A DNA stretch of 64,000 nt, from NCBI GenBank assembly GCA_012270795.1, contig JAAXHO010000197.1:41813-105812 (forward strand), written 5' to 3'. The notes under the pieces were generated by a model. The model searched no databases and was not told the DNA's origin. It saw nothing but the letters and a program-made list of their open reading frames with translations. Positions within the stretch are counted from its first letter, which is position 1; the number at the start of each line of letters is the position of its first letter. Shown here in pieces: positions 1,126 through 54,492 of this stretch. The stretch comes from Candidatus Poribacteria bacterium. Lineage in GTDB: Bacteria; Poribacteria; WGA-4E; WGA-3G. The translations under genes were made by a program, and so were the position numbers.

Positions 1126-1695
1126 TTAAGCCACCCATCGCATAAACTCACCTGCAGGTTTCCGTTTCGGTTCCTTAACTTCTGCGGGATAACCCGTATA
1201 GAAAAAACCGATGATGTATTCTTGCGATGAATCTATACCCAGCAACTTATAGGTCGGTTCTTCCATCGTGATTCTGCCAGTGCTCCACTGCATACCGATG
1301 CCTGCATCCCATGCCGCGAGTTGGACGTTCTGCATCGCACAACAGGTGGCTGCGTAATCTTCACGTTGCCGTTGTTCGTCACCATCTTGAATACAGGACA
1401 CAGCGATAATCGTTGGCTTAGACATAAACTTTTCATAAGCCAATTCACCGATTTTAGCAAGATTTCCTGCATCAACGTGGTCGGGTGTGTCCTCCATCTT
1501 GATTTCTCGGTATCGTTGTGCAAGAATCAGTTTTGTCTTTTCACCGATCACAGTAAACCGCCACGGTTCTGTTACATGATGGTTCGGTGCCCATATCCCG
1601 TAACTGAACACCTGTTCAATTACATCGTTCGGCACCGGTTCCTGTTTGAATTTGAAAACAGATCGTCTTGAAAGTATTGCGTCTTTTACGTCCAT
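1126..1695 (-). CDS. Nitroreductase family protein
   Basis: 189-aa ORF with the nitroreductase N-terminal signature (DAILSRRSVFKF...) and AAGGAGG RBS 7 nt upstream of the ATG. Its first ~70 nt plus upstream region are duplicated at 2854-2955. Confidence 0.8.
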   Translation of the reverse strand: MDVKDAILSRRSVFKFKQEPVPNDVIEQVFSYGIWAPNHHVTEPWRFTVIGEKTKLILAQRYREIKMEDTPDHVDAGNLAKIGELAYEKFMSKPTIIAVSCIQDGDEQRQREDYAATCCAMQNVQLAAWDAGIGMQWSTGRITMEEPTYKLLGIDSSQEYIIGFFYTGYPAEVKEPKRKPAGEFMRWVA

Positions 1696-1744
1696 AAAAT
1701 TCCTCCTTTTGAATTATAATTTATTAGGGCATTGGTTGCAAGGT

Positions 1745-1820
1745 ATTCAATCGCTCCAGCGGAGCAAGATGTTTATAGAAAAATGTCGTGGGCACTCTTC
1801 CGCTCCAGCGGAGCGAGATG
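1745..1820. repeat. REP doublet (two CGCTCCAGCGGAGCG hairpins ~35 nt apart), forward orientation
   Basis: cgctccagcggagc at ~1752 and ~1801. The same ~75-bp unit recurs at 2599-2664. Confidence 0.8.
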
Positions 1821-1856
1821 TTGATTGCTACTTGCTGCCTTCATAATAGCCGAACA

Positions 1857-2336
1857 TTATGTTTCTGAAACATTCTCATCAACACTCTCAAAAACGTATT
1901 TCTCATCGTAAGCAATATCAAAACGTTTCAATAACTCAAGATACTCCTCTCTAAATGTTCTATGAGAATGATGTTTTTCTTGGTTTCGGATGTATCTTGC
2001 AACATCTCCCAACTGAGAATGTGAATAGGTAAATGCACTAAATCCTTCTTGCCATTTAAACTGACCTACTACCCAACGTTTCTTGCTGATAAATTTTGTT
2101 GAACCCACCTTAATATCTCTTACTAAATCAGAAAGATTACAATCTGGTGTCATACCTATAAGGATATGAATGTGGTCGGACATAGAATTGATTTGTATGA
2201 TCTTCTGCTTTCTATTGGTAACAATGCCGGTAATATATTGGTGAAGTTCCTCTTTATGATGTTTTGGAATGAGGGACTGTCTACCCCTAACAGCGAATAC
2301 AATATGGATGTAGAGTTGGGTATATGTATTTGCCAT
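1857..2336 (-). CDS. REP-associated tyrosine transposase (RAYT), IS200/IS605 TnpA (Y1/HUH) family
   Basis: 159-aa ORF with HUH-type motifs (DHIHILI ... tyrosine region ARYIRNQEKHH). It is flanked by the REP palindromes that RAYTs typically accompany. Confidence 0.85.
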   Translation of the reverse strand: MANTYTQLYIHIVFAVRGRQSLIPKHHKEELHQYITGIVTNRKQKIIQINSMSDHIHILIGMTPDCNLSDLVRDIKVGSTKFISKKRWVVGQFKWQEGFSAFTYSHSQLGDVARYIRNQEKHHSHRTFREEYLELLKRFDIAYDEKYVFESVDENVSET

Positions 2337-2404
2337 AAGATTTCTCTTTCTTTAAAGTGCTAAAATCTCTTACATTTGAAGATCTTAATATCAACGTAGG
2401 TGTA

Positions 2405-2485
2405 AATTCACATACCGCTCCGCTGGAGCGGATGTCAACATCTTACCGTGTACTATAAACATACCGCTCCGCTGGAGCGGGGAAA
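2405..2485. repeat. REP doublet, inverted orientation
   Basis: ccgctccgctggagcgg at ~2415 and ~2464. The ~85-bp unit is repeated almost identically at 2765-2845. Confidence 0.8.
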
Positions 2486-2589
2486 CAGATGAATGTTTTC
2501 CTAATCTTCACTAAGTGCTTGATCTAAATTGAAGATTTTTCAATCACATCATATTGTTATTGAAAATCAATTCCCTTATAGTCAGTGTA

Positions 2590-2670
2590 TTCAATCTTTC
2601 GCTCCAGCGGAGCGAAATGTTTATAGAAAAATGTCGTGGGCACTCTTCCGCTCCAGCGGAGCGGTATGTG
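2590..2670. repeat. REP doublet, forward orientation (second copy of the 1745-1820 unit)
   Basis: tcgctccagcggagcgaaatgtttatagaaaaatgtcgtgggcactcttccgctccagcggagcgg. Confidence 0.8.
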
Positions 2671-2730
2671 CAAGAATTCTGAACGTGCTGTGCGGAGACA
2701 TCATATTGTTAGATAGCAACTTGCACCACA

Positions 2731-2985
2731 TTAGAAAATTGCAGATACCAACTTATGTGTGCAATTCACATACCGCTCCGCTGGAGCGGATGTCAACATC
2801 ATACCATGTGCTATAAACATACCGCTCCGCTGGAGCGGGAAAACAGATACATCCTTCGACACCGGTTCCTGTTTGAATTTGAAAACAGACCGTCTTGAAA
2901 GTATTGCGTCTTTTACGTCCATAAAATTCCTCCTTTTTGGATTATAATCTATTGAGTAGTTGGTTGTCGAATATCGTGTTTTCAC
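2731..2985 (-). pseudogene. Duplicated 5' fragment of the nitroreductase gene, fused to REP-derived sequence
   Basis: The ORF translation contains MDVKDAILSRRSVFKFKQEPV, identical to the N-terminus of the 1126-1695 nitroreductase, followed by unrelated read-through. The DNA at 2854-2955 duplicates 1627-1727. Confidence 0.6.
2765..2845. repeat. REP doublet, inverted orientation (second copy of the 2405-2485 unit)
   Basis: cataccgctccgctggagcggatgtcaacatc...ataccgctccgctggagcggg. Confidence 0.8.
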
Positions 2986-2991
2986 TATCCC

Positions 2992-3904
2992 TCAATTACA
3001 AGATTTAGACAAAAACTTATTAGGCATTTGCGAATCCTTTAAAATCACACCAGAGTTCTTTTGCGAAGCTGTTCTACACAAAACATGCCTCCTTAGACTC
3101 TTCTCTAATGCCGTTTTGTAAGGATTGGATAAATTCAATGCTATCTCTCTCGGTCTTCCAGAGAGAATTTCTTCACGCGTGAATTGTAAACGATTAGAGT
3201 ACGCAAGTTGTAAAAATAGCAATCCAAGATGATAAATGTCGGATCGATGATCAATTGGACCAAACTCATTAGGATCTAAAACTTCAGGTGGCAATAACCA
3301 CTGCGGTCTAGTGTTCGTAGCATCTACATCAGGAAGCAATTTTGAAACACCGAGGTCTCCCAATTTAAATTGAATGACATGAGCTTTTTGTGGAACCATT
3401 TCATCTTTTATAAAAGTGGAAAAAACATTTCCCTCATGAATGTCCTGATGCACGTAATTATTCAAATGGAGATAATGGACTGCTTGCAGAAGTTGTCTAG
3501 CTATCGGCATAAACCAACCCATACCATGAAAATCTGGTAAATCGAAAAGTACTGATATTGGCGCAGAACATCTTTCTGTTACAATGTAACAAGGTATATC
3601 GATATTCAAATGCATCATACACAAATGTAATATTAGGGTGTCTTAATTCCATCAGTCTATGAAATTCACCCTCTGCATTTTCCTTCAATTTATCGTAAGG
3701 ATAGACCGGTTTTAAAACTTTTACAGCAAGATCATTACCCCAATCATCTGAACAATTGTACACAACGCCAAAGTTTCCTTCATCTATCCGGGGACCAATT
3801 GTGTAAGTGTTACCTCCTGTAGCTAAACTTGTAATAGCCTCACCTGGAACAGGTTGTATACCACGTATCGTTGGTAAATTAACAATCTGATTGATGTTGT
3901 TCAT
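2992..3904 (-). pseudogene. Eukaryotic-type protein kinase-like gene, split by a frameshift near 3610-3625; the catalytic-loop motif is non-canonical
   Basis: The upstream ORF (3497-3904) has a Gly-rich loop (GNFGVVY), the LAVKVLK lysine motif, and HPNITFVYDAFEY. The downstream ORF (2992-3624) continues with IPCYIVTERCSAPISVLFD, HQDIHEGN (in place of HRDLKxxN), and DLGVSK (in place of DFG). The junction is explained by one extra base (gaatat[c]gatatacc). Confidence 0.55.
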
Positions 3905-3936
3905 AGGTTTCTAGGTTTTGCAATGTTTAATCTGTA

Positions 3937-4866
3937 CTACTTTGAACGAACTACAGCAATACTCCCATATCCGAATACTCCATTGATAACGTCTTGAACA
4001 CCTATACCGTGTAAGTTAGCACTCTGGATCTTATTTGACCGAGTGTCTATCCAGTACATCTTATCACTTTCCATATCCAGAGCAATATCATTTGGGTTAT
4101 TCAATCCATCGACTAGGTCTTGAACATTTGTACCGTCCAAATTCGCGCAACGGATTCTACCACTATCAAAGTTATATTCTGTCCAATAGATTTTACCATT
4201 TATCAGATCTAATGCTATACCATATGGGTAATCTCCAGTGGTGATAACATCTTGAATTTCTGTGCCATCCAAGTTGGCACGACGAATTTTTGCTGTATGT
4301 GGAGTTCCTTCTATCCATATCTCACCGAAACGTCTTCCTTTTGTTTCTGAGGTGCCCTCTGTCCAGTACATTTTACCTTCTTGCATATTCAAAGCAATAC
4401 TTCGTGGGGAGTTTAATCCGCTGATAAGGTCTTGAACATCTGTGCCATCCAAGTTGGCACAACAGATTTTATGTTTAAACAGTCCTCGCAGTCCTGGCGT
4501 CGTCCCTTGTATCCAGTACACTTTACTTGCTATTACATCTAAGGCAATATAGCGAGGGTAGTATAATCCGGTGATAACATTCCGGGCGTTTGGACCGTCT
4601 AAGTTAGCTCTTTGAATTTTACCAGTTACCGTCCAATAGATTTTATCGCGTTGCGTATCTAAGGCAATATCATACGGCCCATTCAATCCCATGTTTACGA
4701 TGGATTGAATGTTTAAATTTCGCAAGTTTGTGAGTTGAGCAGTATCTATTCTGCGAGGGGCCGTCCAATAGATGGTAGGCTGCGAGCCAACTTCGGACAC
4801 AACCTCAGAGGGACTCCATACGACAACTAATAAAAATAAAAACATGAAGGTTCTTCGTTTTTTCAT
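3937..4866 (-). CDS. Secreted YWTD (LDL-receptor class B) six-bladed beta-propeller protein
   Basis: N-terminal signal peptide. Six repeats of the type DKIYWTD/GKMYWTE/DKMYWID, spaced ~45 aa apart. Confidence 0.75.
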   Translation of the reverse strand: MKKRRTFMFLFLLVVVWSPSEVVSEVGSQPTIYWTAPRRIDTAQLTNLRNLNIQSIVNMGLNGPYDIALDTQRDKIYWTVTGKIQRANLDGPNARNVITGLYYPRYIALDVIASKVYWIQGTTPGLRGLFKHKICCANLDGTDVQDLISGLNSPRSIALNMQEGKMYWTEGTSETKGRRFGEIWIEGTPHTAKIRRANLDGTEIQDVITTGDYPYGIALDLINGKIYWTEYNFDSGRIRCANLDGTNVQDLVDGLNNPNDIALDMESDKMYWIDTRSNKIQSANLHGIGVQDVINGVFGYGSIAVVRSK

Positions 4867-5015
4867 AAATGAAAATTCCTTTAATTGAATCGTAGATGAT
4901 TAACTCTGAAAACAGAAATTCGCTGAGGGAACCAGTTATTTTGCATAAATTCTGTCATATTATAGTGTTGGGTCAGCAAGCCACCACAACAAAACGTGGG
5001 TATCCAATAACAGAT

Positions 5016-5195
5016 TCATTCGTTTTTCCCACGAAAAGCAGCCATAAACGATTCAGGCAATTCATCAAAATCTTCTGCAATCTTCACTTTACCTTTCCAC
5101 TGTCCACCACGGCGAGGTTTCTTGTCACCATTCTTTAAAGGTGTGGGCTTGGCAATAGGCATGCCCTTGCTATCAAATTTAATCTTTTTTTCCAT
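5016..5195 (-). CDS. Small DUF2281-like protein (antitoxin-like C-terminal motif)
   Basis: 59-aa internal-start ORF. Its C-terminal WKGKVKIAEDFDELPESF resembles the DUF2281 signature. It lies 50 nt downstream of the prepilin peptidase, and no partner toxin gene is evident. Confidence 0.4.
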   Translation of the reverse strand: MEKKIKFDSKGMPIAKPTPLKNGDKKPRRGGQWKGKVKIAEDFDELPESFMAAFRGKNE

Positions 5196-12713: not shown

Positions 12714-12796
12714 TCTCATAAATCGTAGGAGGGGTTTCTAACCCCGATTTACCGGACATGAAACCCGTGAATTTGGACAAAATTACATTTATGAGA
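12714..12796. repeat. MITE-like 83-bp element with 10-bp terminal inverted repeats (TCTCATAAAT...ATTTATGAGA) and a GGAGGGGTTTCTAACCCCGATTT core
   Basis: Near-identical copy at 44078-44161. Confidence 0.8.
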
Positions 12797-22694: not shown

Positions 22695-22797
22695 CTCTTG
22701 TTGGAGGGGTTTCTAACCCCGATTTATGACAAAACGCATCAAAATTCGTTGTTTTTATGTTTTCTGTTATCAATCGGGGTTAGAAACCCCGATTTTC
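22695..22797. repeat. Inverted-repeat element with GGAGGGGTTTCTAACCCCGATTT core
   Basis: cttgttggaggggtttctaaccccgattt ... caatcggggttagaaaccccgatttt. Related elements lie at 26366-26438 and 33731-33808. Confidence 0.75.
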
Positions 22798-26340: not shown

Positions 26341-26478
26341 AGGAGCAGAGTCATTCAATTGTCACAAAGCATCATTGTTGGAGGGGTTTCTAACCCCGAT
26401 TTCTGCTGTTGTGTATCTCAAATCGGGGTTAGAAACCCCTCCAACAACAATGAAACCCGACAATTGGATGCCTCTGCA
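26341..26478. repeat. Nested MITE-like element: 19-bp terminal inverted repeats (GCAGAGtCATTCAATTGTC...GACAATTGgATGCCTCTGC) enclosing a 27-bp-armed hairpin with GGGGTTTCTAACCCC core
   Basis: The inner inverted repeat 26366-26438 is perfect (ttgttggaggggtttctaaccccgattt / aaatcggggttagaaacccctccaacaa). The outer inverted repeat recurs at 54552-54760. The element overlaps the annotated 5' end of jag. Confidence 0.75.
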
Positions 26479-32298: not shown

Positions 32299-32362
32299 CT
32301 CTAACTCCTTTGTAGTAGTAAAATTATACGGATTGATAATAAACCTTGTATGTTTACATAAG

Positions 32363-32454
32363 ATGCACAAACTGGAAGTTTATGCTACATAAGGCGCACA
32401 ATCTAACAGATCATGCTACATAAGATGCACAAACTGAAAGTTTATGCTACATAA
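32363..32454. promoter_or_regulatory. Two copies of a conserved palindromic upstream element (CACAAACTGRAAGTTTRTGCTACATAAG), 65-155 nt upstream of the LamG gene
   Basis: atgcacaaactggaagtttatgctacataag at 32363-32393, again at 32424-32454, and a partial third copy between them. The same element lies ~85-90 nt upstream of the minus-strand genes starting at 46461 and 54346. Confidence 0.5.
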
Positions 32455-32517
32455 GTTCTGTAGTTGATTTTCCATATTAGAATTTTGAAATCTCAATTTC
32501 TTTCGCAGTAATAAACT

Positions 32518-33730: not shown

Positions 33731-33808
33731 CCCTCTTGTTGGCGGGGTTTCTACCCCGATAGCAGAGGGGAATGGCATAAAATCGGGGTTAGAAACCCCT
33801 CCAACAAG
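33731..33808. repeat. Inverted-repeat element of the GGGGTTTCTAACCCC family (degenerate left arm)
   Basis: cctcttgttggcggggtttctaccccgat...aaaatcggggttagaaacccctccaacaagag. Confidence 0.7.
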
Positions 33809-44077: not shown

Positions 44078-44161
44078 TCTCATAAATGGTAGGAGGGGTT
44101 TGTAACCCCGATTTACCAGACACGCGACACGGTGAATTCGGACAAAATCGTATTTATGAGA
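44078..44161. repeat. MITE-like element, second copy of the 12714-12796 family
   Basis: tctcataaatggtaggaggggtttgtaaccccgatttacc...atttatgaga. Confidence 0.8.
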
Positions 44162-46461: not shown

Positions 46462-46548
46462 TGGTTTCCTAATCTAAATATTTGTATTGTCATACCATTT
46501 CTATAAATTATTGTCTTATTGAATGGTTGTTATCGTAGTCATTCTTTA

Positions 46549-46608
46549 GGACACAAACTGAAAGTTTGTGCTACAAAAAAGAGACATTATCATTTAGAAA
46601 TGGTATCA
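46549..46608. promoter_or_regulatory. Conserved upstream element (perfect palindrome CACAAACTGAAAGTTTGTG + ...CATTTCTAAA box), ~90 nt upstream of hisC
   Basis: ggacacaaactgaaagtttgtgctacaaaaaagagacattatcatttagaaatggtatcag. The same composite recurs at 54431-54492 and in part at 32363-32454. Confidence 0.5.
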
Positions 46609-47036: not shown

Positions 47037-50000
47037 TTACTTTGTGTCAGATTCAGGGGGCGGCCCATTGAGTGCATTTGAAACCAAGACGAGATCGGCA
47101 AGATCAACAATTCCATCTTTATTTACATCTGCGCTGTTATCTTTACCGACCTGTCCAAGACGGGATGCAACGAATTCAAGGTCTGCAGCATCTAACTGCC
47201 AGTCGCGGTTTGCATCTTCTGGGATACGTGGTGGTTCAACGATCCATGCACGATCAGCAATCGGGCGCGAATTTTTACCGTCTCTGTGTGTAAGAACAGC
47301 ATCTGTTAGTGTCAAAGTTACGTCAGTGCGTATTAGTACTTCAAAAGTGACGGTAGCGATTGTGCCATTGTCTATGGTGGAATTGGCAGTCGCGTTGCCT
47401 GTGAGTGTGATGGAATTTTCTGCTACGACTGGGGGTGGAGTTTTCCAGTTTCTTGATTTTTGGTTGCCTTCGGTGTTAGGAATATATCGGAGTGCTGTTG
47501 CATCATACTTCAACTTGAATTGGTATCCTGTGACATTTTGCCCATCGGTCATGTTAATGTTAAAGGTCAATTGTTTGCCTGTGGGTGGAGATTGGACAGA
47601 GAGAGGGGTGATGTTTAGGCGCGTGTCAGGTTTTGATTTCATTTGCCATAAAAGCACAGTGCCGTCTGTGCTACCACTCACAAGCGTTGTGCCGTCCGGT
47701 GAAAACGCAAGCGAGGTGACCGGAAGTGTATGGTTGGTTGGGATGGTCCGACTTTCTCCCGTTTCTACATCCCAAATTTTAATAATCCAATTGTAATTTG
47801 ATAGAACTATAGCTGCGAGTGTGGTGCCATCCGGTGAAAACATCATAGAGTTTGGTTTTATTGAGCTGACTTTGAAGGTCGATTTAAGTTTACTAGTACT
47901 TGTTTCCCGAAGTTTGATGGAGGCTTCACTGTAGTGGGCGAATGTATTCCCATCAGGTGAGAATGCAACTGAGGGCACTGAATGGGTATTCTCTGTAAAT
48001 GCAGCGAATTGTTCACCAGTTTTTATATGCCATAATCGGATCGTCATATCGGGTTTTTCAACATCCTGATTTGGTCTACTTATACCTGCAAGTGTATTGC
48101 CATCCGGCGAGAATGTGGTGGAAGTAATATACCCTGTGGGGACCCAGAGAGTTGCTTTATGTTCTCCAGTATGCGTCCTTAACAGTGGCATTGAAGGACC
48201 TCTTGAACTGGCAAAAGTTTCACCATCCGGAGCAAACGCTAAAGCATGCACATTTTTTGAACTAAAGATTCGTTTGTGTTGTTGGGTTTGGATATTCCAT
48301 AAGAAAGTCCCCTCACGCCAACTGTTACTTGCCAGTGTTCGGTTGTCTGGTAAAAACAAAACGGACGAAATAGGGGATTCATGACCTTTGAGTATTCCTT
48401 TGTGTTGTCGGTTTTGCAGATCCCATAACTGAATTGTCCTATCGTGGACATATTCATCTTCACTTGCGGTAGCAAGGATGGTATTATCCGGGGAAACAGC
48501 AACAGAAGTGACTGCTGTAGTATGTCCTTTAAGGATAAGGCGTGTTTCTCTGGTTTTCACGTCCCATAAACGTATTTCCCCGCGAATACCTGCACTTGCA
48601 AGGGTTTTTCCATCAGGTGAAAACGCGACCGAATAAAGCATTTCTGTGTGTCCTTCTAATGTCGCTATGATATTGCCCGTATCTGCATCCCAGAGGCGAA
48701 CGGTTTTGTCAAGGCTTACGCTCGCAAGGGTTTGCCCATCATTAGAGAACTCCATACCAACACGGGCACCTCCCTTATAGTATGATGTCGTAGCCCCATT
48801 ATCCGCAAACCTTACGGAAGCAACCGGGGCTGTGTGTCCTATGAGTTTATTTTGTAGTTCTTCAGTGTGTGCGTTCAATATTTGAATTGCCTTTGCGTCC
48901 TCGTTCCGTCCTAACATTACAGTGGCGCGTCGTGTACCATCCGGTGAATTAATGTAGTTGGAACCAGGCATTGAGTATAACCAACGCCATTTCTTATCAA
49001 GTGTTTTGGAATCTCTATCAATGGATTTTAGATATTTGCCAGTGTGCGGATCCCATACCATTATGATTTCGTAAGATGACCCCGAGTTTTCATTCCGACT
49101 CCTCGCAGCAAGCGTTCTGCCGTCTGGTGAAAATGCTATGGCTTTGATTCTTGCCTCGTTATTGAGGATCTTTAGCAATTCGCCTGTATGCGGATTCCAC
49201 AAGCGCATGGTGCGATCATAACTACCACTCGCAAGGAGATCGCCATAAGGAGAAATGGCTATACACGTAACAGGTTTCGTATGTCCTGCTAATAGAGCAA
49301 GTTCCTTACCAGTGGTCGCGTCATAAATCCAAATACCTGCAGAACCGCCTACCATGATCCACTTGTTATCTGGGGAAAACATTATATCATTGACAGTTCC
49401 TTTTCCTAATCGAGCTTTTGCCTCTTTCGGCAGCGAAAATTGGGTGTGATCTGCTGCAGCGTCCGACCATGGCGGTGCAACAACGGAACCCCTCACAACG
49501 ATAGGACTAGCGAGGCTGCCATCCCCCTTTTCAAGCCGTACTCTCGGTAGGTTGAGGGTTGAAGGTTTCGTTGCAATGACTTCAAACGTAACACTTGCAA
49601 GCGTGCCATCGCCATTGCTGGGTTCTGCAGTAGTTTTTGATACAAGTTTCACACGATTTGGATACACGTCTTTGGTGGAAAAAGATGCATCTGTGGAAAG
49701 ATAATCCCCTTTTTCACTTGAAACATAGCGGAGGGCAGTGGTATCAAAATCCATCGTGACCTGATATCCTTTAACGTTCTTTGCACCAACAACATTAACG
49801 TTTAATTTGAGCTTTTCACCTAGGGCAGGGGATTGAATTGGAGAGGGTGATATACGAACAATGGCATTCGTATCAACAAAAGGTGTTGCGTCCCAGAAAA
49901 TGACAGTGCCATCAAGACTGCTGCTAATGAGGGTTTCATCAGTAGTGGAGAATATCAGTGAAATTATTTCGGCTGTGTGCCCAACTAAAGTATCTCTGTG

Positions 50001-50159
50001 ATATCCAGTTGCTGTATTCCACAGTCGAATGGTACGATCCTTACTTCCACTTGCAAGTGTTTTGCCATCAGTAGAAAATGCTAACACACTGATGCTAGCT
50101 GAAACTCTTTGTGTCCGATGCCGAAAATTGATGTGTAAGTGCCCGTTTTTAAATTCCAT
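47037..50159 (-). CDS. Giant WD40-repeat protein with two cohesin-like beta-sandwich modules and a C-terminal dockerin; probably the C-terminal ~1040 aa of a longer frameshifted gene
   Basis: Many WD repeats (GHT..V.S.AFSPDG..LAS.S.D.T..LW). Two ~130-aa modules (…GYQVTMDFDTTALRYVSSEKGDYLS…, …GYQFKLKYDATALRYIP…) are homologous to one in the 51734 gene. The C-terminal DANRDWQLDAADLEFV...DVNKDGIVDLADLVLV is dockerin type I-like. Confidence 0.75.
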   Translation of the reverse strand: MEFKNGHLHINFRHRTQRVSASISVLAFSTDGKTLASGSKDRTIRLWNTATGYHRDTLVGHTAEIISLIFSTTDETLISSSLDGTVIFWDATPFVDTNAIVRISPSPIQSPALGEKLKLNVNVVGAKNVKGYQVTMDFDTTALRYVSSEKGDYLSTDASFSTKDVYPNRVKLVSKTTAEPSNGDGTLASVTFEVIATKPSTLNLPRVRLEKGDGSLASPIVVRGSVVAPPWSDAAADHTQFSLPKEAKARLGKGTVNDIMFSPDNKWIMVGGSAGIWIYDATTGKELALLAGHTKPVTCIAISPYGDLLASGSYDRTMRLWNPHTGELLKILNNEARIKAIAFSPDGRTLAARSRNENSGSSYEIIMVWDPHTGKYLKSIDRDSKTLDKKWRWLYSMPGSNYINSPDGTRRATVMLGRNEDAKAIQILNAHTEELQNKLIGHTAPVASVRFADNGATTSYYKGGARVGMEFSNDGQTLASVSLDKTVRLWDADTGNIIATLEGHTEMLYSVAFSPDGKTLASAGIRGEIRLWDVKTRETRLILKGHTTAVTSVAVSPDNTILATASEDEYVHDRTIQLWDLQNRQHKGILKGHESPISSVLFLPDNRTLASNSWREGTFLWNIQTQQHKRIFSSKNVHALAFAPDGETFASSRGPSMPLLRTHTGEHKATLWVPTGYITSTTFSPDGNTLAGISRPNQDVEKPDMTIRLWHIKTGEQFAAFTENTHSVPSVAFSPDGNTFAHYSEASIKLRETSTSKLKSTFKVSSIKPNSMMFSPDGTTLAAIVLSNYNWIIKIWDVETGESRTIPTNHTLPVTSLAFSPDGTTLVSGSTDGTVLLWQMKSKPDTRLNITPLSVQSPPTGKQLTFNINMTDGQNVTGYQFKLKYDATALRYIPNTEGNQKSRNWKTPPPVVAENSITLTGNATANSTIDNGTIATVTFEVLIRTDVTLTLTDAVLTHRDGKNSRPIADRAWIVEPPRIPEDANRDWQLDAADLEFVASRLGQVGKDNSADVNKDGIVDLADLVLVSNALNGPPPESDTK

Positions 50160-51737
50160 AGGTGGACTTTACCATAGTTGGTTCCGCTTGCAAGCATTGA
50201 GTTGTCTGGTGAGAATGCTAATACTTCTGTGAATCTATCTTTTTTGGAAATGGTTGCTTTATGTTGTGCAGTAACAGTGTCCCACAACTGAATGCTAGAG
50301 TCCCTACCCATCGTAGCAAGCATGCTACCATCTTCAGAGAATACCATCAAGGTAACAGGGTCTGTATGCTTTTTCAGGATTGCTTTTTGTTTACCTGTCT
50401 GTGTATCCCACAATTCCACTGCACCATCCCTTTTGCCCAAGGCAAGTATTGTTTCATCTGGCGACAATGTTCTTGAATAGGCACTCCTTGTTGAAATAAC
50501 TTCATCAACGGTTAGTGTGCCTTCTTTTAGAAGTGTCCCTGTGCGCGCATCCCACAATAGATGTTCTTTCGCACTTTTGCTTGAGAACGTTACTCCATCT
50601 TGTGAAAAGGCAATAGAGGTAATTTCTTCTGTATGTTCAGTAAGACTTGCTTTCTGTTTGAAAGTATCAACATCCCACAACTGTATTTCTCTATTTCCTG
50701 TTGTTGTAAGTGTCTTGTTATCTGGAGACAGTGCTATAAGCGGCATGTATAGTGTATGAAAAAGTGTGCTTTTATATTGGTCTGTTTGTGCATCCCAGAA
50801 CCGAATTGTCCCGTCAGCACTGCCAGATGTAAGTACACCTCTGTCTGGTGAAAATGTTAAAGTGGTAATACTTTCAGTATGTCCAGCAAGTGTTTCCAAT
50901 AGTGTACCTGTTTTTGGGTTCCATAGTCGTATTGTATTGTCCCATCCGCCACTGGCAAGTATTACACCATTTGGAGAGAATGCGACTGCATTGATACTTC
51001 TGGTATGTTCTGTGAGTGTCTCTAATAGTTTACCTGTTTTTGGGTTCCACAGGTGAATTGTATTGTCCCATCCACCACTGGCAAGTATTGCTCCATCTGG
51101 TAAGAATGCGACTGCAGAAATTGGTTTTTTATTCCCAGTGAGGATTCCCTTGCTACTTCCTGACGGAACGTCCCACAATCGAATTGTTCCGTCTGTATTT
51201 CCACGTGCCAGCATCTTTCCATCCGGCGAATACGCAAGAGCATTGCGATTGCCATTGTGTTCTGTAATCTTATTTTTCCGTTTGAGTGTATCCGCATCCC
51301 ACAACTGAATGTGATGACCTACGATTGCTATTGTTTTGCCATCTGGCGAAAACGTTACTGTACTCATATTTCCTGTGAGAGTGGTTTTATGTTTCCCAGT
51401 TTTAGGATTCCATAGTCGGACTGTTCTATCATAACTTGCACTTGCAAGAGTCTCACCATCTGGTGAAAACGCAACTGCCGTTACTGGCTGCGTGTGTCCT
51501 GTTAATGAAGAAAAGTTCTTCCCATGTATGTGCATCATATAACCATGTCCCGATATAAGTTCCTACTGCAAGCAGTTTACCATCAGGCGAATACGCCATA
51601 TCAGTGATCTGTCCTCTACCGATACGCGCGATGGCATTTTCAGGGAGTGCCCATTGAGACGAATCTTCAGCAAAACCATTTGATAAACAGACAAAAGATA
51701 ACAGCAATGTGGCAAATAGAACACTTATAGTTTTCAT
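50081..51737 (-). pseudogene. N-terminal part (signal peptide + WD40 repeats) of the same giant WD40 gene, broken by single-base frameshifts at ~51527 and ~50100-50125
   Basis: ORF 51453-51737 (signal peptide ...LYDAHTWEEL...) and ORF 50081-51538 (MMHIHGKNFSSLTGHTQ...) join as ...LYDAHTGKNFSSLTGHTQPV if one T is removed (aca[t]ggg). ORF 50081-51538 ends ...GIGHKEFQLASVC*, while the overlapping frame gives HRTQRVSASISVLAFSTDGK, which is the start of ORF 47037-50159. Confidence 0.6.
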
Positions 51738-54346
51738 TTTTTCGTCGTTTCACTACTATTGACTGTGGCACGCAAACGTTTTCCCTCTTTGTCTGAGAGA
51801 ATTAAGTTAGCGATATTCAAGGGTAGTGGTTTATCAGTGACAACCTCATACGTTACGGTTGCAAGTGTGCCGTTCCCGTTACCTACTCCTGTGATTGCAG
51901 TAGATACAAGTGTCACCTGATTTTTCTCAACAATAGGTTTCGCAAAGAATGCGTCTTCGGACAAATAGTCGCCCTTGTTGCTGGAAATGTATCGGAGTGC
52001 ACTTGCATCATATTGAACAGTTATATGATAACCAGCAACATTTTCACCACCCTCAATTTCAATATTAAACGTCAAATGTTTTCCAATTGTTGGAGATGCT
52101 ACCGACGAAGGTGTTATTTTTGCGATCACGTTTTCGTCAACAATCGGAATTGGCTTCCATAACACAACTGTTTGATCATAACCTGCACTTGCAAGCATGT
52201 TGCCATCTCCGGTAAACGCTAACGAAGTGATACGCCGACTGTGCCCTTTTAAAGTTGCTTTGTGTTGCCGGAAACCGACATCCCACACCTCAATTTGGTA
52301 CCCACTGGTACTTGCAAGGAGTGTGCCATCTGGCGAAAACGCTAACGCGTTCACATCACCCCACGAACTTTCTTTAGGCATCAAACTATTTTCACCTGTT
52401 GCGGTATCCCACAATTGAACTGTACTATCCCTTTCACCACCCCCACTTGCAAGGAGTGTACCATCTGGCGAAAACGCTAAGGCGGTTACACGCGAAGTAT
52501 GCCCTATATACGTGGTTTTTAGCTTTTTTGTGCGCGTGTCCCACAGATCAATTGTAGCGTTTCCTTTGCTACCACTGGTCGCGAGAGTTTCTCCATCTGG
52601 CGAAAACGCAAAGGCAGAAACACCATACGGGTGATCTTTAAGGATGCTGTCGTATTTTTTTGTCTTTATATTCCACAATTGAATCCCTCGTATGTTCGTA
52701 TAGCGGAAAGAATTTACACTGGCGAGTGTTAAACCGTCATAAGAGAAAACTACTGCATTTACTGGAGAGACTCCATCAGCTGAATCCGGTTGTTCCTTAA
52801 GTGTCTCAAGGTGTAGGTTGGTTTTTGTACTCCATAATCGCACCGTTCCATCCTTGCTGGCACTTGCGATCATTTTTCCATCAGTTGAGAACGCTATGTC
52901 ATTGATGGCGGCTGAATGTCCTTTAAGACTTGCGCGGTATTTGCCTGTGTTTCCATCAAATAACCAGATTCTGGCATCTCCGATTCCGCATGCCAGCATG
53001 CCGTCCCCATTGGAGGCAACAAAGGCGGGTTGATAGGCTTGTCCGAAGTTACTTCTATATGGTATTGTCCCTGTCTCTTTTCCTGTAGAGATATTCCATA
53101 ACAGAATTACTTGTCCATAATCGCGCGGGTCTTTATCAAGTCTACTACTCATCATTGCAAATGTTTGACCATCAGGTGAGAAGCGAAGTGTGTTTACATT
53201 AGCATTGATAGCAAGTGTTGCAACTTTGTTTCCTCTAATTGTTTCCCAGAGTTGAATGCTGCCCTTTTCTTGATTTTCTTGAGCTGCAAGTATTCTGCCA
53301 TCCGCTGACAACGCTGTAGGAAAGAAACGTCCATCGGTATCGGTAAGAATAGTGGTGCGTTGTCGTCCGGTGCGCGTATCCCATATCTGAATTTCTGGGG
53401 AATTCTCTAAACGGCAAATTAGTATTTCGCTATTTTGTGAAAACGATTCATAAGTTGAAGTTTGATTCAGATCGCTTTCAAGAATAGCAAGTTCCTTCCG
53501 GGTGGCTGCATCCCACAAAACTGTTTTGTTTTGATCTTTACTTACGAAACGCGTCCCGTTGGGTGACAAGTGCAAGCTGCGGTAGGTGTCCTTTAAGTCA
53601 ATTCGCTTGCCTTCTCCGGTTTCTGTATTCCAAGAACGGTAAGTTCCATCTGTGCTGCTACTTATGAGTGTGATGTTGTCTGGAGCATAGACGAGTCGGG
53701 TGATCCATCCTGTATCGGTTACAGGAATTGTCTTAATGGATTTTCCAGTGATAACATCCCAAATCTGGACTGTGCCATCTGTAGATATTTTGGGTTGAGA
53801 TTCAACTAAATCTGACCAGCGGGTGGCTAAACCGCCGCTACCACGTCGCTCCGATGGGACCTTCCCACTTGCACCTGTTGCAAGTTTTTTACTGTCTGGT
53901 GAAAATGCTAAGACATTGGTATTACCTAAATGCCCCGTAAGTGTCGCACGATGTTCAAAAGTATGAGCATCCCACAATCGGACTGTCTTATCAAGGCTAC
54001 CGCTTGCGATGGTTTTTCCATCTGGTGAAAACATTACAGAAGTGATTGAGTCCGTATGTCCAGTAAGTAAAGCGAGTTCGTCCCCTGTGTGTGCATCGTG
54101 AATCCAAATTCCGATTATTGGACTAACAACAGCAAGCCGCGTGCCATCCGGTGAAAATACGAAATTAGGTTCTACTTGTCTATCACCGCGATACACTACT
54201 TGTCTATCACCACCATAACTGATACGCATTTTTGCACCTTCAGGCAATGCCCGAAGAGGTGGTGATGGACCGCTACCGAAAACTATCGGTAGCAATGTTA
54301 TTGAGATCATCAATAGAGATAGGGTAAAAAATGTTAACTTTTTCAT
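51734..54346 (-). CDS. Secreted WD40-repeat protein with a C-terminal cohesin-like module
   Basis: Signal peptide, ~14+ WD repeats, and a C-terminal module ...NVAGYHITVQYDASALRYISSNKGDYLS...GNGNGTLATVTYEVV... homologous to those in 47037-50159. Confidence 0.8.
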   Translation of the reverse strand: MKKLTFFTLSLLMISITLLPIVFGSGPSPPLRALPEGAKMRISYGGDRQVVYRGDRQVEPNFVFSPDGTRLAVVSPIIGIWIHDAHTGDELALLTGHTDSITSVMFSPDGKTIASGSLDKTVRLWDAHTFEHRATLTGHLGNTNVLAFSPDSKKLATGASGKVPSERRGSGGLATRWSDLVESQPKISTDGTVQIWDVITGKSIKTIPVTDTGWITRLVYAPDNITLISSSTDGTYRSWNTETGEGKRIDLKDTYRSLHLSPNGTRFVSKDQNKTVLWDAATRKELAILESDLNQTSTYESFSQNSEILICRLENSPEIQIWDTRTGRQRTTILTDTDGRFFPTALSADGRILAAQENQEKGSIQLWETIRGNKVATLAINANVNTLRFSPDGQTFAMMSSRLDKDPRDYGQVILLWNISTGKETGTIPYRSNFGQAYQPAFVASNGDGMLACGIGDARIWLFDGNTGKYRASLKGHSAAINDIAFSTDGKMIASASKDGTVRLWSTKTNLHLETLKEQPDSADGVSPVNAVVFSYDGLTLASVNSFRYTNIRGIQLWNIKTKKYDSILKDHPYGVSAFAFSPDGETLATSGSKGNATIDLWDTRTKKLKTTYIGHTSRVTALAFSPDGTLLASGGGERDSTVQLWDTATGENSLMPKESSWGDVNALAFSPDGTLLASTSGYQIEVWDVGFRQHKATLKGHSRRITSLAFTGDGNMLASAGYDQTVVLWKPIPIVDENVIAKITPSSVASPTIGKHLTFNIEIEGGENVAGYHITVQYDASALRYISSNKGDYLSEDAFFAKPIVEKNQVTLVSTAITGVGNGNGTLATVTYEVVTDKPLPLNIANLILSDKEGKRLRATVNSSETTKK

Positions 54347-54430
54347 TAGAATATCCGAGGGTATTGGTTAAATAATACCATTTCTATTAAATTTTCTCTC
54401 ATTACCGGCTGTTAGAAATGAAACGTAGAA

Positions 54431-54492
54431 CTGCACAAACTGGAAGTTTATGCTACAAAAAAGAGGCATTTTCTATTAGAAATGATATAATG
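54431..54492. promoter_or_regulatory. Conserved upstream element (CACAAACTGGAAGTTTATG palindrome + CATTTCTAAT box), ~85 nt upstream of the WD40 gene at 54346
   Basis: ctgcacaaactggaagtttatgctacaaaaaagaggcattttctattagaaatgatataatg. Compare 46549-46608. Confidence 0.5.

What the first reader, a model, noticed from the sequence alone, without database searches (positions are those of the whole stretch)
1620..2990. RAYT transposase with alternating-orientation REP doublets inserted at the nitroreductase promoter, flanked by a ~100-bp duplication that recreates a promoter-plus-5'-fragment copy
The 159-aa HUH/Y1 transposase is a REP-associated tyrosine transposase. Eight copies of the 15-nt imperfect palindrome CGCTCCAGCGGAGCG form four doublets (forward, inverted, forward, inverted). 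There are two distinct ~80-bp doublet units, each present twice, as in REP-RAYT (BIME-like) systems. The cassette is bounded by near-identical direct repeats 1627-1727 and 2854-2955, which include the nitroreductase RBS and first 23 codons. A truncated pseudo-start of the nitroreductase (MDVKDAILSRRSVFKFKQEPV...) therefore now reads into REP sequence. A target duplication of about 100 bp is much longer than classical transposition footprints. It points to a replication- or recombination-based REP proliferation event that can be reconstructed exactly from this locus.
Basis: seen in the sequence. Interest (0 to 1): 0.55.

Follow-up and report, generated by a model that had tools for sequence, protein, structure and literature searches.

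The report
Poribacterial REP–transposase locus with recombination scar
A long-resident, single-copy hairpin-repeat transposase locus in a sponge-associated Poribacteria genome carries a 120-bp repeat of its neighbour gene's start, which is most likely a scar of allele swapping by recombination and not a transposition footprint.

Summary
A 159-aa HUH/Y1 transposase (1857-2336, minus strand) sits among eight copies of the hairpin CGCTCCAGCGGAGCG, arranged as four doublets. About 119 bp, covering the nitroreductase promoter, ribosome-binding site and first 25 codons, occurs on both sides.

The REP-transposase reading holds, with a correction. By sequence the protein is IS200-like (TnpAY1 subclass 1.2), not a classical RAYT. 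By behaviour it is RAYT-like: it keeps one syntenic place in five relatives, it diverges in step with its neighbours, and its REP doublets lie scattered and extragenic in Poribacteria chromosomes, 117 of 120 sites without the gene.

The "insertion with a 100-bp target duplication" reading is not supported. The REP-promoter junction on the nitroreductase side is the ancestral one, minus about 30 nt. The far copy is collinear with a kinase-nitroreductase allele found without the transposase. The two copies differ unevenly (3 of 88 nt against 8 of 33). A REP-free relative carries an analogous stub, and another relative has a different stub abutting a REP.

Best explanation: alternative alleles of a variable locus were stacked by homology-anchored plus illegitimate recombination. 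This is a new variant of a known kind, of moderate interest.

The parts
1126..1695 (-). Intact nitroreductase gene (189 aa). It is the conserved right-hand anchor of the variable locus.
   Evidence: Pfam Nitroreductase 93 bits. Orthologues are 88-93% identical in ten related loci.
1621..1738 (-). DR1, the functional copy. It holds the -35 TTGCAA (1736-1741), the -10 TATAAT (1713-1718), the RBS and codons 1-25 of the nitroreductase.
   Evidence: The TTGCAA-N17-TATAAT element is conserved in most of the related loci aligned.
1742..1825 (+). REP doublet A, with hairpins at 1752-1766 and 1801-1815. It lies downstream of the transposase gene. Its outer flank joins the promoter through the ancestral junction, minus about 30 nt.
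1857..2336 (-). HUH/Y1 transposase, 159 aa, TnpAY1 subclass 1.2 type. It carries DHIH, WQ and YIRNQEKHH motifs and is intact.
   Evidence: Motifs compared with Table 1 of PMC6006769.
2405..2490 (-). REP doublet B, with hairpins at 2416-2430 and 2465-2479. It lies upstream of the transposase gene and is inverted relative to A.
2491..2586 (.). Spacer between the full unit and the gene-less unit. It is conserved in L003.
2587..2848 (.). Gene-less inverted pair of doublets. It consists of A' (hairpins 2600, 2649), a 93-nt core, and B' (hairpins 2774, 2823). It is REPIN-like and folds into one long hairpin.
   Evidence: -70.6 kcal/mol, z = -11. Collinear with L003.
2848..2966 (-). DR2, a dead stub of another allele. 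It holds a promoter-like TCGACA-N18-TATAAT, the RBS and 25 nitroreductase codons (P22S, N23K), broken about 10 nt before the first hairpin of B'. The 63-aa stub ORF runs 2731-2922.
2992..3904 (-). Ser/Thr kinase gene, frameshifted here. Together with DR2 it is collinear with the kinase-nitroreductase allele of L138.
   Evidence: Intact in L138 (293 aa) and L147 (294 aa).
2999..5188 (-). Cargo block of antitoxin, truncated VapC, YWTD-repeat protein and kinase. It is 89.8% identical to L147, whereas the flanks are 77-81% identical, so it was probably imported by recombination.

Best explanation
**The element.** The locus is a REPtron. It is a single-copy, vertically inherited HUH/Y1 transposase gene of the IS200-like TnpAY1 subclass 1.2, bracketed by inverted doublets of a 7-bp-stem, 3-nt-loop hairpin with a 3' ATGT tag. 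A gene-less inverted pair of doublets lies next to it.

By analogy with TnpA of IS200/IS605 and TnpAREP, the enzyme is expected to bind these hairpins in single-stranded DNA and to cut and join beside them. That would spread doublets and inverted doublet pairs through extragenic DNA while the gene itself stays put. This activity is inferred, not shown.

**The 119-bp repeat.** It is not a target duplication. The stretch between the prepilin peptidase gene and the nitroreductase gene is a variable locus with alternative contents. These are the REPtron, a YWTD or FGE-sulfatase gene plus kinase, or TPR plus SMC. All of them end in the same promoter-RBS-nitroreductase anchor.

In this lineage a kinase-type allele and a REPtron-type allele became stacked. 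One end recombined by homology. The other end, which shared too little homology (RBS plus 25 codons), was joined illegitimately beside a REP hairpin. The kinase allele's promoter, RBS and first 25 codons were left as a dead stub (DR2) on the far side of the REPtron.
For: **Element identity**
- Pfam and NCBIfam place the protein in the Y1/IS200 family. The subclass 1.2 motifs are present.
- The same gene sits next to the nitroreductase in L003, L004, L136, L137 and L142.
- It is 86-91% identical to those orthologues, in line with neighbouring genes at 83-87%.
- A 79%-identical orthologue keeps one fixed context in the 10 places shown; 24 contigs carrying it were read.
- The doublet-gene-inverted-doublet layout recurs in L022 and L052, and REPs flank the gene in L006-L015.
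- The REP pattern occurs in at least 120 stretches of Poribacteria and Acidobacteriota genomes. Of these, 117 have no Y1 gene.
- Only 19 of 154 REP cores lie inside long ORFs, although such ORFs cover 80% of the bases.
- Stem pairs covary across 90 distinct copies. The hairpins fold well.

**Scar, not target duplication**
- The window's REP A-promoter junction aligns with those of L142 and L003 with one clean gap of about 30 nt.
- The kinase-through-DR2 stretch is one collinear match to L138, which has no transposase and a single copy of the segment.
- L136 and L138 encode the identical nitroreductase protein (13 differences in 570 nt) but differ strongly upstream of the RBS. Both allele types therefore coexist in one species, and the allele boundary lies at the RBS.
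- DR1 and DR2 differ at 3 of 88 nt from the RBS to codon 25, but at 8 of 33 nt in the promoter part (p = 0.0013).
- L142 has a different stub (RBS plus about 20 codons) abutting a REP, with the ancestral junction on the other side.
- L147/L148 have a stub (promoter plus RBS, ending in the start codon) in front of a TPR-SMC cassette, with no REP at all.
- The cargo block is 89.8% identical to L147, against 77-81% for the flanks.
Against: - No parental allele from the window's own lineage was found. The scan for the REP A-promoter junction gave nothing.
- DR1 and DR2 share bases not seen in other genomes (ATACTT, TCTGTT, CCGGTG). This fits partners from the same population, but it equally fits an intragenomic duplication or gene conversion.
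- Both REP-associated stubs (window and L142) break at or within about 10 nt of a hairpin. This hints that REP or the transposase may take part in the illegitimate join.
- For L142 the proposed partner allele, with the nitroreductase directly after the peptidase gene, has not been seen.
- Dispersal of this REP in the window's own genome is unproven. There are 0 copies outside the locus in about 72 kb.
- Enzyme activity is inferred only.
Confidence: 0.65

Rival explanations
1. The whole REP-transposase cassette (about 1.1 kb) was inserted at the nitroreductase promoter by a replication- or transposase-linked event that duplicated about 119 bp of target.
For: - The repeats directly abut both ends of the cassette.
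- An empty site with one copy exists (L138).
- Both cassette ends lie about 10 nt outside an outermost hairpin.
Against: - The right junction is the ancestral REP A-promoter junction shared with L142 and L003, minus about 30 nt.
- The gene is at this same locus in five relatives, four of them (L003, L004, L136, L137) without any duplication.
- Divergence between the copies is uneven.
- L142's duplication does not abut REP A.
- A REP-free cassette has an analogous stub.
- No other REP cluster in 120 loci is flanked by duplicated unique host DNA. The flanking repeats found there are repeat elements themselves.
Confidence: 0.06
2. There was one older duplication in the common ancestor of the window and L142. 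One route would be a tandem duplication whose join point lay at a REP. Lineage-specific deletions followed, and gene conversion kept the coding parts of the two copies alike.
For: - The window and L142 are each other's closest relatives in the data, and only they have REP-abutting nitroreductase stubs.
- In both, the copies are 96-97% identical from the RBS onwards and carry lineage-specific shared bases.
- The L142 break shows a CCG microhomology compatible with a deletion.
Against: - It needs two deletions plus gene conversion in both lineages.
- The kinase-promoter contiguity in the window matches L138 without a scar, which a tandem duplication followed by deletion would not produce by chance.
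- The L147 stub shows that stacking also happens without REPs.
Confidence: 0.15
3. Allele stacking occurred as in the best explanation, but the illegitimate join was catalysed by the Y1 transposase itself. It would cut beside a REP hairpin and ligate that end to single-stranded nitroreductase DNA in a D-loop or at a replication fork.
For: - Both REP-associated stubs end at a hairpin. The window stub ends about 10 nt 5' of the first hairpin of B'. The L142 stub ends exactly at the foot of a hairpin.
- Related enzymes cut at fixed short distances from hairpins (PMC8266576).
Against: - There are only two cases, and the distances differ.
- Hairpins and their margins fill a large share of the DNA available for a join, so proximity can be chance.
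- The L147 stub formed without any REP.
- No shared cleavage motif is visible at the breaks.
Confidence: 0.1
4. The structure is a metagenome assembly chimera of two coexisting haplotypes.
For: - Both allele types do coexist in a related population (L136 and L138).
- The two copies share exact runs of 45 and 30 nt.
Against: - The DR2-B' junction is not a shared k-mer, so graph traversal cannot create it.
- The two copies are 9% different.
- The index lists the stub ORF on 5 contigs. The transposase and the YWTD protein each occur in NCBI and ENA records with a longest contig of 197 kb.
- An unrelated assembly (LXNJ01000747.1) has an analogous structure.
Confidence: 0.02
5. It is an ordinary autonomous IS200/IS605 insertion sequence whose ends carry double hairpins.
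For: - NCBIfam IS200 model is above its cut-off.
- The best solved relatives are ISDra2 and IS608 TnpA.
- Different Poribacteria lineages hold the gene at different loci.
Against: - The gene has one syntenic place and diverges with its neighbours.
- The hairpin doublets are scattered without the gene.
- The end hairpins are inverted relative to each other, as in REPtrons.
- There is no tnpB next to the transposase in the window.
Confidence: 0.03

Closest known systems
E. coli REPtron: TnpAREP (RAYT group 2, TnpAY1 subclass 2.2) with REP/BIME (PMC3333891, PMC3479197, PMC8266576)
   Same: A single-copy Y1 HUH gene is bracketed by inverted hairpin repeats that also occur dispersed in extragenic DNA. 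Gene-less inverted repeat units lie next to the gene.
   Different: - The protein is not of class 2. It has Y---Q--HH instead of Y---NP, the NCBIfam RAYT model scores below its cut-off, and E. coli TnpAREP does not appear among the PDB hits.
- The hairpin is short (7 bp) and has no 5' GT[AG]G tag. It has a conserved 3' ATGT instead.
- The basic unit is a direct doublet with a 49-50 nt period, not a single REP.
- The host is Poribacteria.
REPIN-RAYT systems of Pseudomonas (PMC3116915, PMC5581495)
   Same: Inverted repeat pairs act as the dispersed, non-autonomous unit. The gene is vertically inherited and behaves like a housekeeping gene.
   Different: - Here the inverted pair is made of two doublets, giving four hairpins.
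- Copy number appears low.
TnpAY1 subclass 1.2 (Quentin et al. 2018, PMC6006769). [quoted passage not shown] 2017 (PMC5581495); that equation is my inference.
   Same: The DH[IV]H, WQ and YIKNQKEHH-type motifs, a length of about 150 aa with a C-terminal tail, low copy number and non-IS behaviour all match.
   Different: That paper lists subclass 1.2 as having no REPs and as largely confined to Cyanobacteria and Bacteroidetes. Here, members in Poribacteria are flanked by REP doublets that are also dispersed.
IS200/IS605 insertion sequences (IS608, ISDra2)
   Same: These hold the closest solved structures and profile matches. They also share hairpin-guided chemistry on single-stranded DNA and the absence of target duplication.
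   Different: The gene is not multicopy and has no tnpB. The end hairpins are inverted relative to each other. The hairpins spread without the gene.
Homology-facilitated illegitimate recombination during uptake of foreign DNA (described for Acinetobacter and Streptococcus pneumoniae; cited from my own knowledge, not checked in the paper library)
   Same: One end is anchored by homology. The other end is joined at little or no microhomology (A in the window, CCG in L142). The result is stacked or replaced segments with short leftover stubs.
   Different: It is not demonstrated here. Which molecule was donor and which recipient is unknown, and no uptake or competence data exist for Poribacteria.

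Membership tests
REP/RAYT system (REPtron) | HUH/Y1 transposase with an HUH motif and a catalytic Tyr | tested here: met
   Pfam Y1_Tnp 92 bits. H55-I-H57 and Y115 are read from the sequence.
REP/RAYT system (REPtron) | Gene bracketed by hairpin repeats in inverted orientation | tested here: met
   Doublet A (++) and doublet B (--) flank the gene. The same layout occurs in L022 and L052, and REPs flank the gene in L003 and L006-L015.
REP/RAYT system (REPtron) | The same repeats dispersed in extragenic DNA without the gene | tested here: inconclusive
   Met in related genomes: at least 120 stretches, 117 without a Y1 gene, and REP cores depleted from ORFs. Not shown for the source genome: 0 copies outside the locus in about 72 kb.
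REP/RAYT system (REPtron) | Single copy, vertical inheritance, housekeeping-like behaviour | tested here: met
   Same synteny in 5 relatives, and divergence equal to that of the neighbours. An orthologue keeps one context in the 10 places shown. Copy number per whole genome was not counted.
REP/RAYT system (REPtron) | Class 2 RAYT sequence signature (Y---NP; NCBIfam REP_Tyr_transpos) | tested here: not met
   30.4 bits against a cut-off of 80. The Y motif is YIRNQEKHH. E. coli TnpAREP is absent from the PDB hits.
REP/RAYT system (REPtron) | Canonical REP with a 5' GT[AG]G tag at the foot of the hairpin | tested here: not met
   Among the REP copies collected with the ATGT anchor, the bases just 5' of the stem vary and show no GT[AG]G.
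REP/RAYT system (REPtron) | The enzyme binds and cleaves its REP in single-stranded DNA | not testable with these tools
   Needs biochemistry.
TnpAY1 subclass 1.2 | Motifs DH[IV]H, WQ and Y---Q--HH; about 148 aa; low copy number | tested here: met
   DHIH, WQ and YIRNQEKHH are present in a 159-aa protein, compared with Table 1 of PMC6006769.
IS200/IS605 insertion sequence | TnpA of the IS200 type | tested here: met
   NCBIfam NF033573 at 69.5 bits against a cut-off of 55. ISDra2 TnpA matches at 3e-7.
IS200/IS605 insertion sequence | The element moves as a unit, giving several near-identical copies in different contexts | tested here: not met
   The exact protein occurs in one context only. Orthologues are syntenic. 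The hairpins spread without the gene. The test is indirect because no whole genome was scanned for the gene.
Target-site duplication made by insertion | Both junctions created by the insertion event | tested here: not met
   The REP A-promoter junction is ancestral. It is shared with L142 and L003 apart from a gap of about 30 nt.
Target-site duplication made by insertion | The two copies start identical, so their divergence should be even along the repeat | tested here: not met
   3 of 88 differences against 8 of 33, Fisher p = 0.0013.
Target-site duplication made by insertion | Seen at other insertions of the same element | tested here: not met
   L003, L004, L136 and L137 have no duplication. 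In 120 REP loci no duplicated unique host DNA was found.

The most novel reading that the evidence does not exclude
The subclass 1.2 Y1 enzyme joins REP-bounded DNA ends to exposed single-stranded DNA of the neighbouring gene. It thereby carries the whole REPtron, and sometimes adjacent host DNA, into transposase-free alleles of the same locus in other strains. This would be a homology-guided, hairpin-catalysed way for a 'domesticated' transposase locus to re-colonise a population. The two different REP-abutting nitroreductase stubs, in the window and in L142, would be its footprints.
Probability: 0.1. Interest if true: 0.7.

Novelty: new variant of a known kind. Interest (0 to 1): 0.4.

Why it matters
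REP-transposase systems are best known from Proteobacteria, and how they spread is still open (PMC8266576). Three points follow from this locus.

- **An IS200-like subclass with REPs.** TnpAY1 subclass 1.2 was reported to lack REPs. In Poribacteria it has its own hairpin family with an unusual direct-doublet architecture. The same hairpin plus tag also occurs in Acidobacteriota.
- **Presence/absence within a species.** The locus gives a clear natural example of such a gene being present or absent at one variable locus within a species. Stacked alleles there preserve the recombination joints.
- **A caution for interpretation.** Long direct repeats around a mobile-looking cassette can be recombination scars rather than transposition footprints.

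Tried and rejected
1. **Recurrent flanking duplications.** I tested whether long flanking duplications recur around REP clusters in the 120 related loci. The flanking repeats found (L030, L035, L054, L078, L119 and others) are tandem or interspersed repeat elements, not duplicated host genes.
2. **A degenerate REP relic next to the antitoxin/VapC remnant (window 4866-4978).** Such a relic would have meant a precise insertion of the cargo block into the array. The local alignment score equals that of shuffled sequence, so I rejected it.
3. **The gene-less unit as a simple deletion derivative of the full unit.** Similarity of its core to the gene flanks is weak (40 and 98 of 1000 shuffles reach the score). 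I call it only "gene-less inverted pair".
4. **Metagenome scan for the exact REP A-promoter junction.** No hit.
5. **L143 from the second metagenome scan.** It is an unrelated chance match.
6. **Rfam.** No family reaches its threshold in 1500-3100.
7. **Promoter scan.** Promoter-like hits are no more frequent than in shuffles. The promoter assignment therefore rests on conservation across genomes, not on the scan.
8. **My earlier idea that the symmetric cassette ends (about 10 nt from a hairpin) mark transposase cuts.** It was weakened once the REP A side proved to be the ancestral junction.
Full report
**Observation**

The features are in the sequence as described. On the minus strand lie the nitroreductase gene (1126-1695) and a 159-aa ORF (1857-2336) that matches Pfam Y1_Tnp at 92 bits. 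The 15-mer CGCTCCAGCGGAGCG occurs eight times at up to 2 mismatches, against 0 expected. All eight lie in 1750-2840, and there is none elsewhere in the 64-kb window or in 8 kb beyond its left end.

The eight copies form four doublets with a 49-nt period.
- A: hairpins at 1752 and 1801, forward orientation.
- B: hairpins at 2416 and 2465, inverted.
- A': hairpins at 2600 and 2649, forward.
- B': hairpins at 2774 and 2823, inverted.

A and A' are 94% identical, and B and B' are 95% identical. Direct repeats at 1621-1738 and 2848-2966 are 91% identical over 119 nt. The stub ORF starting at 2922 reads into REP B'.

The window is part of ENA ERZ23495086 scaffold_38, which is 126 kb long. The index lists the exact stub protein on five contigs, which may or may not be independent assemblies. 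The transposase and the upstream YWTD protein each also occur in NCBI and ENA records whose longest contig is 197 kb.

**The protein**

NCBIfam places the protein in IS200/IS605 TnpA (69.5 bits, cut-off 55) and not in the RAYT model (30.4 bits, cut-off 80). The nearest solved structures are ISDra2 and IS608 TnpA. E. coli TnpAREP is not among the hits.

Its motifs are D54-H-I-H57, W95-Q96 and Y115-IRNQ-EK-HH. These match TnpAY1 subclass 1.2 of Quentin et al. That subclass is described as IS200-related but low-copy, not IS-like, reported "REP: no", and found mainly in Cyanobacteria and Bacteroidetes (PMC6006769). Bertels et al. describe a "RAYT-like IS200 Group 3" with no duplicates and abundant flanking 16-mers (PMC5581495). 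Equating the two groups is my inference.

**The repeats**

A single REP folds as a 7-bp stem with a 3-nt loop (-8.1 kcal/mol, z = -5.3). The gene-less unit 2587-2850 folds as one long hairpin (-70.6 kcal/mol, z = -11).

I collected 90 distinct copies from all loci, anchored only on TCCAGCGGA plus ATGT. Part of the set comes from a scan that fixed the full core, which forces pairing in those copies. The four outer stem positions behave as follows.
- Pairs 1-3 stay paired in 97-99% of copies, with swaps among G-C, A-T, T-A and C-G.
- Pair 4 stays paired in 77% of copies, using three different Watson-Crick pairs.
- The next position out is paired in only 29%.

There is no GT[AG]G tag. A 3' ATGT is conserved instead.

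Most hits are in Candidatus Poribacteria MAGs, with several sites per chromosome (for example 7 in OZ244829.1). Others are in Pyrinomonadaceae and Blastocatellia.
- Only L022 and L052 (70-72% identical orthologues, each in a doublet-gene-inverted-doublet layout) and L036 (a 32% relative, not adjacent) hold a Y1 gene.
- REP cores lie inside long ORFs in 19 of 154 cases, although such ORFs cover 80% of the bases.
- In Poribacteria the dispersed units are direct doublets and compact ++-- quadruplets. In Acidobacteriota they are +- pairs.
- Homologues annotated with N-terminal extensions read through the upstream REP, giving "SAPAERYV".

**Inheritance**

Orthologues at 86-91% identity sit next to the nitroreductase in L003, L004/L005, L136, L137 and L142. 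The neighbouring proteins are 83-87% identical (amidohydrolase, AAA ATPase, proteasome subunit, sigma-54 regulator), so the gene has diverged with its surroundings. A 79% orthologue occupies one fixed context in the 10 places shown; 24 contigs carrying it were read. The window's array, from the inner hairpin of B' through A', B, the gene and A to the nitroreductase, is collinear with L003 at 81%. This layout is therefore old.

**The locus is variable**

Close nitroreductase orthologues have different upstream contents.

| Locus | Content upstream of the nitroreductase |
|---|---|
| L003, L004, L136, L137, L142 | REPtron |
| L138 | FGE-sulfatase plus intact kinase |
| L140 | FGE-sulfatase |
| L139, L144, L145 | TPR/SMC |
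| L147, L148 | YWTD, kinase, TPR, SMC |

L136 and L138 encode the identical nitroreductase protein (13 differences in 570 nt) but differ strongly upstream of the RBS. Transposase-bearing and transposase-free alleles therefore coexist in one species, and the allele boundary lies at the RBS.

**The duplication**

Seven observations bear on its origin.

1. L138 is an empty site. Window 3905-2848 (kinase through DR2) is one collinear match to L138. Window 1744-1 matches the continuation. L138 has the roughly 120-bp segment once.
2. The junction between REP A and the promoter in the window aligns with those of L142 and L003 with one clean gap of about 30 nt, between short AAT repeats. It is inherited, not made by an insertion.
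3. DR1 and DR2 differ at 3 of 88 nt from the RBS to codon 25, but at 8 of 33 nt in the promoter part (p = 0.0013). This is the pattern seen between alternative alleles.
4. L142 is the closest relative (LXNJ01000747.1, found with a lineage-specific 20-mer). It has a different stub of RBS plus about 20 codons, joined at a CCG microhomology to the foot of a REP hairpin upstream of a frameshifted transposase gene. Its upstream sequence is unrelated, and the ancestral junction is kept on the nitroreductase side.
5. L147/L148 carry a kinase followed by the promoter and RBS, cut off in the start codon. TPR-SMC follows, then a second promoter-RBS-nitroreductase, with no REP anywhere.
6. The cargo block (window 5188-2999) is 89.8% identical to L147, while the flanks are 77-81% identical. 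This indicates import by recombination.
7. L003, L004, L136 and L137 have no second copy.

**Mechanism**

*Shown:* the anatomy, the synteny, the dispersal of the repeats in relatives, the coexistence of allele types, the ancestral right junction and the collinear left context.

*Inferred:* the enzyme acts on the hairpins in single-stranded DNA as its IS200/IS605 and TnpAREP relatives do.

*Also inferred:* the stub arose when a kinase-type and a REPtron-type allele were combined. One side recombined by homology. The other side was joined illegitimately, because the remaining homology (74-88 nt) was too short for a second homologous exchange. That reasoning would also explain why all stubs are short. 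Which molecule was donor and which recipient cannot be told.

The breaks in the window (about 10 nt before a hairpin) and in L142 (at a hairpin foot) leave room for a role of the hairpins or the enzyme in the join. With two cases, and a REP-free counter-example in L147, this is only a possibility.

**Rivals**

- A long target duplication is contradicted by points 2, 3, 5 and 7.
- One older duplication followed by deletions and gene conversion remains possible. The window and L142 are sisters, and each genome's two copies share lineage-specific bases.
- An assembly chimera is unlikely. The DR2-B' joint is not a shared k-mer, and a separate assembly (L142) has an analogous structure.
- An autonomous IS is contradicted by the synteny and by the gene-free spread of the hairpins.

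**Comparison and novelty**

The system works like a REPtron, or REPIN-RAYT system. It fails two sequence-level criteria of classical RAYT systems, namely the class 2 protein signature and the GT[AG]G tag. It fits TnpAY1 subclass 1.2, for which REPs had not been reported. The new aspects are the direct-doublet unit, the four-hairpin inverted pair, the ATGT tag and the host phyla. No paper in the searched library links Poribacteria with RAYTs. The duplication itself has an ordinary explanation.

**Limits**

- The REP copy number and the gene copy number in the source genome are unknown.
- No parental alleles from this lineage were recovered.

Noticed in passing
window 12728-12750, 22703-22725 (with an inverted partner at 22752-22790), 26380-26402 / 26420-26442, 33780-33802 (partner near 33736), 44092-44114: A second, unrelated palindromic repeat, GGAGGGGTTTCTAACCCCGATTT (hairpin GGGGTT-TCTA-AACCCC), is dispersed through the window, often as inverted pairs with arms up to 58 nt. 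It looks REPIN-like and is far more frequent here than the REP flanking the Y1 gene. Its cognate transposase, if any, is not in the window.
   Followed up: partly
window 32355-32455, 46541-46606, 54423-54488: A third small palindromic element, GCACAAACTGGAAGTTTATGC, occurs three times in tandem (31-nt period) at 32.4 kb. Single copies lie at both ends of the repeat-rich 47.6-54.1 kb region.
   Followed up: no
window 2992-3904 (-): The Ser/Thr kinase gene is split into two overlapping ORFs (135 and 210 aa), which indicates a frameshift. Orthologues are intact in L138 (293 aa) and L147 (294 aa).
   Followed up: partly
window ~4955-5195 (-): A 59-aa antitoxin-like ORF is followed by only the first ~19 codons of a PIN/VapC-like toxin (MNLLLDTHVLLWWLADPTL*). 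The same remnant precedes the REP array in L136 and L004.
   Followed up: partly
L003 4401-4557: A ~157-bp element with terminal inverted repeats ATGA(A/G)GATTAA is inserted in the loop of a REP hairpin (CCGCTCCAG | insert | GCGGAGCGG). It is a small MITE that targets, or is tolerated in, the REP loop.
   Followed up: no
L020, L024, L028, L029, L033, L036, L042, L110, L116, L117, L124, L125 and others (Pyrinomonadaceae, Blastocatellia): The same REP core plus ATGT tag occurs in Acidobacteriota MAGs, mostly as inverted pairs 42-55 nt apart. So the hairpin family is shared across phyla. The associated transposase there was not identified.
   Followed up: no
L035 3373-3651, L078 3140-3420, L119 2560-3060 (all from OZ244829.1): REPs alternate with a ~110-nt repeat that contains a strong hairpin (GTGTTGCTTGCTG...CAAGTAACAC), giving a BIME-like composite array. 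The nature of this repeat is unknown.
   Followed up: no
L142 11839-12330: The transposase orthologue in the closest relative is frameshifted, with the N-terminal 45 codons in another frame. This is either a pseudogene or an assembly error.
   Followed up: partly
window 47676-54155: There are about 21 diverged copies of a ~46-nt motif with spacings near 120-135 nt. This looks like internal repeats of a very large beta-propeller/WD40-like repeat protein gene.
   Followed up: no
window 2941-2970 (-): The promoter copy in the stub has changed its -35 from TTGCAA to TCGACA, with an 18-nt spacer (11 of 12 matches to consensus). It points through the REP array towards the transposase gene. Whether it is active is unknown.
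   Followed up: no
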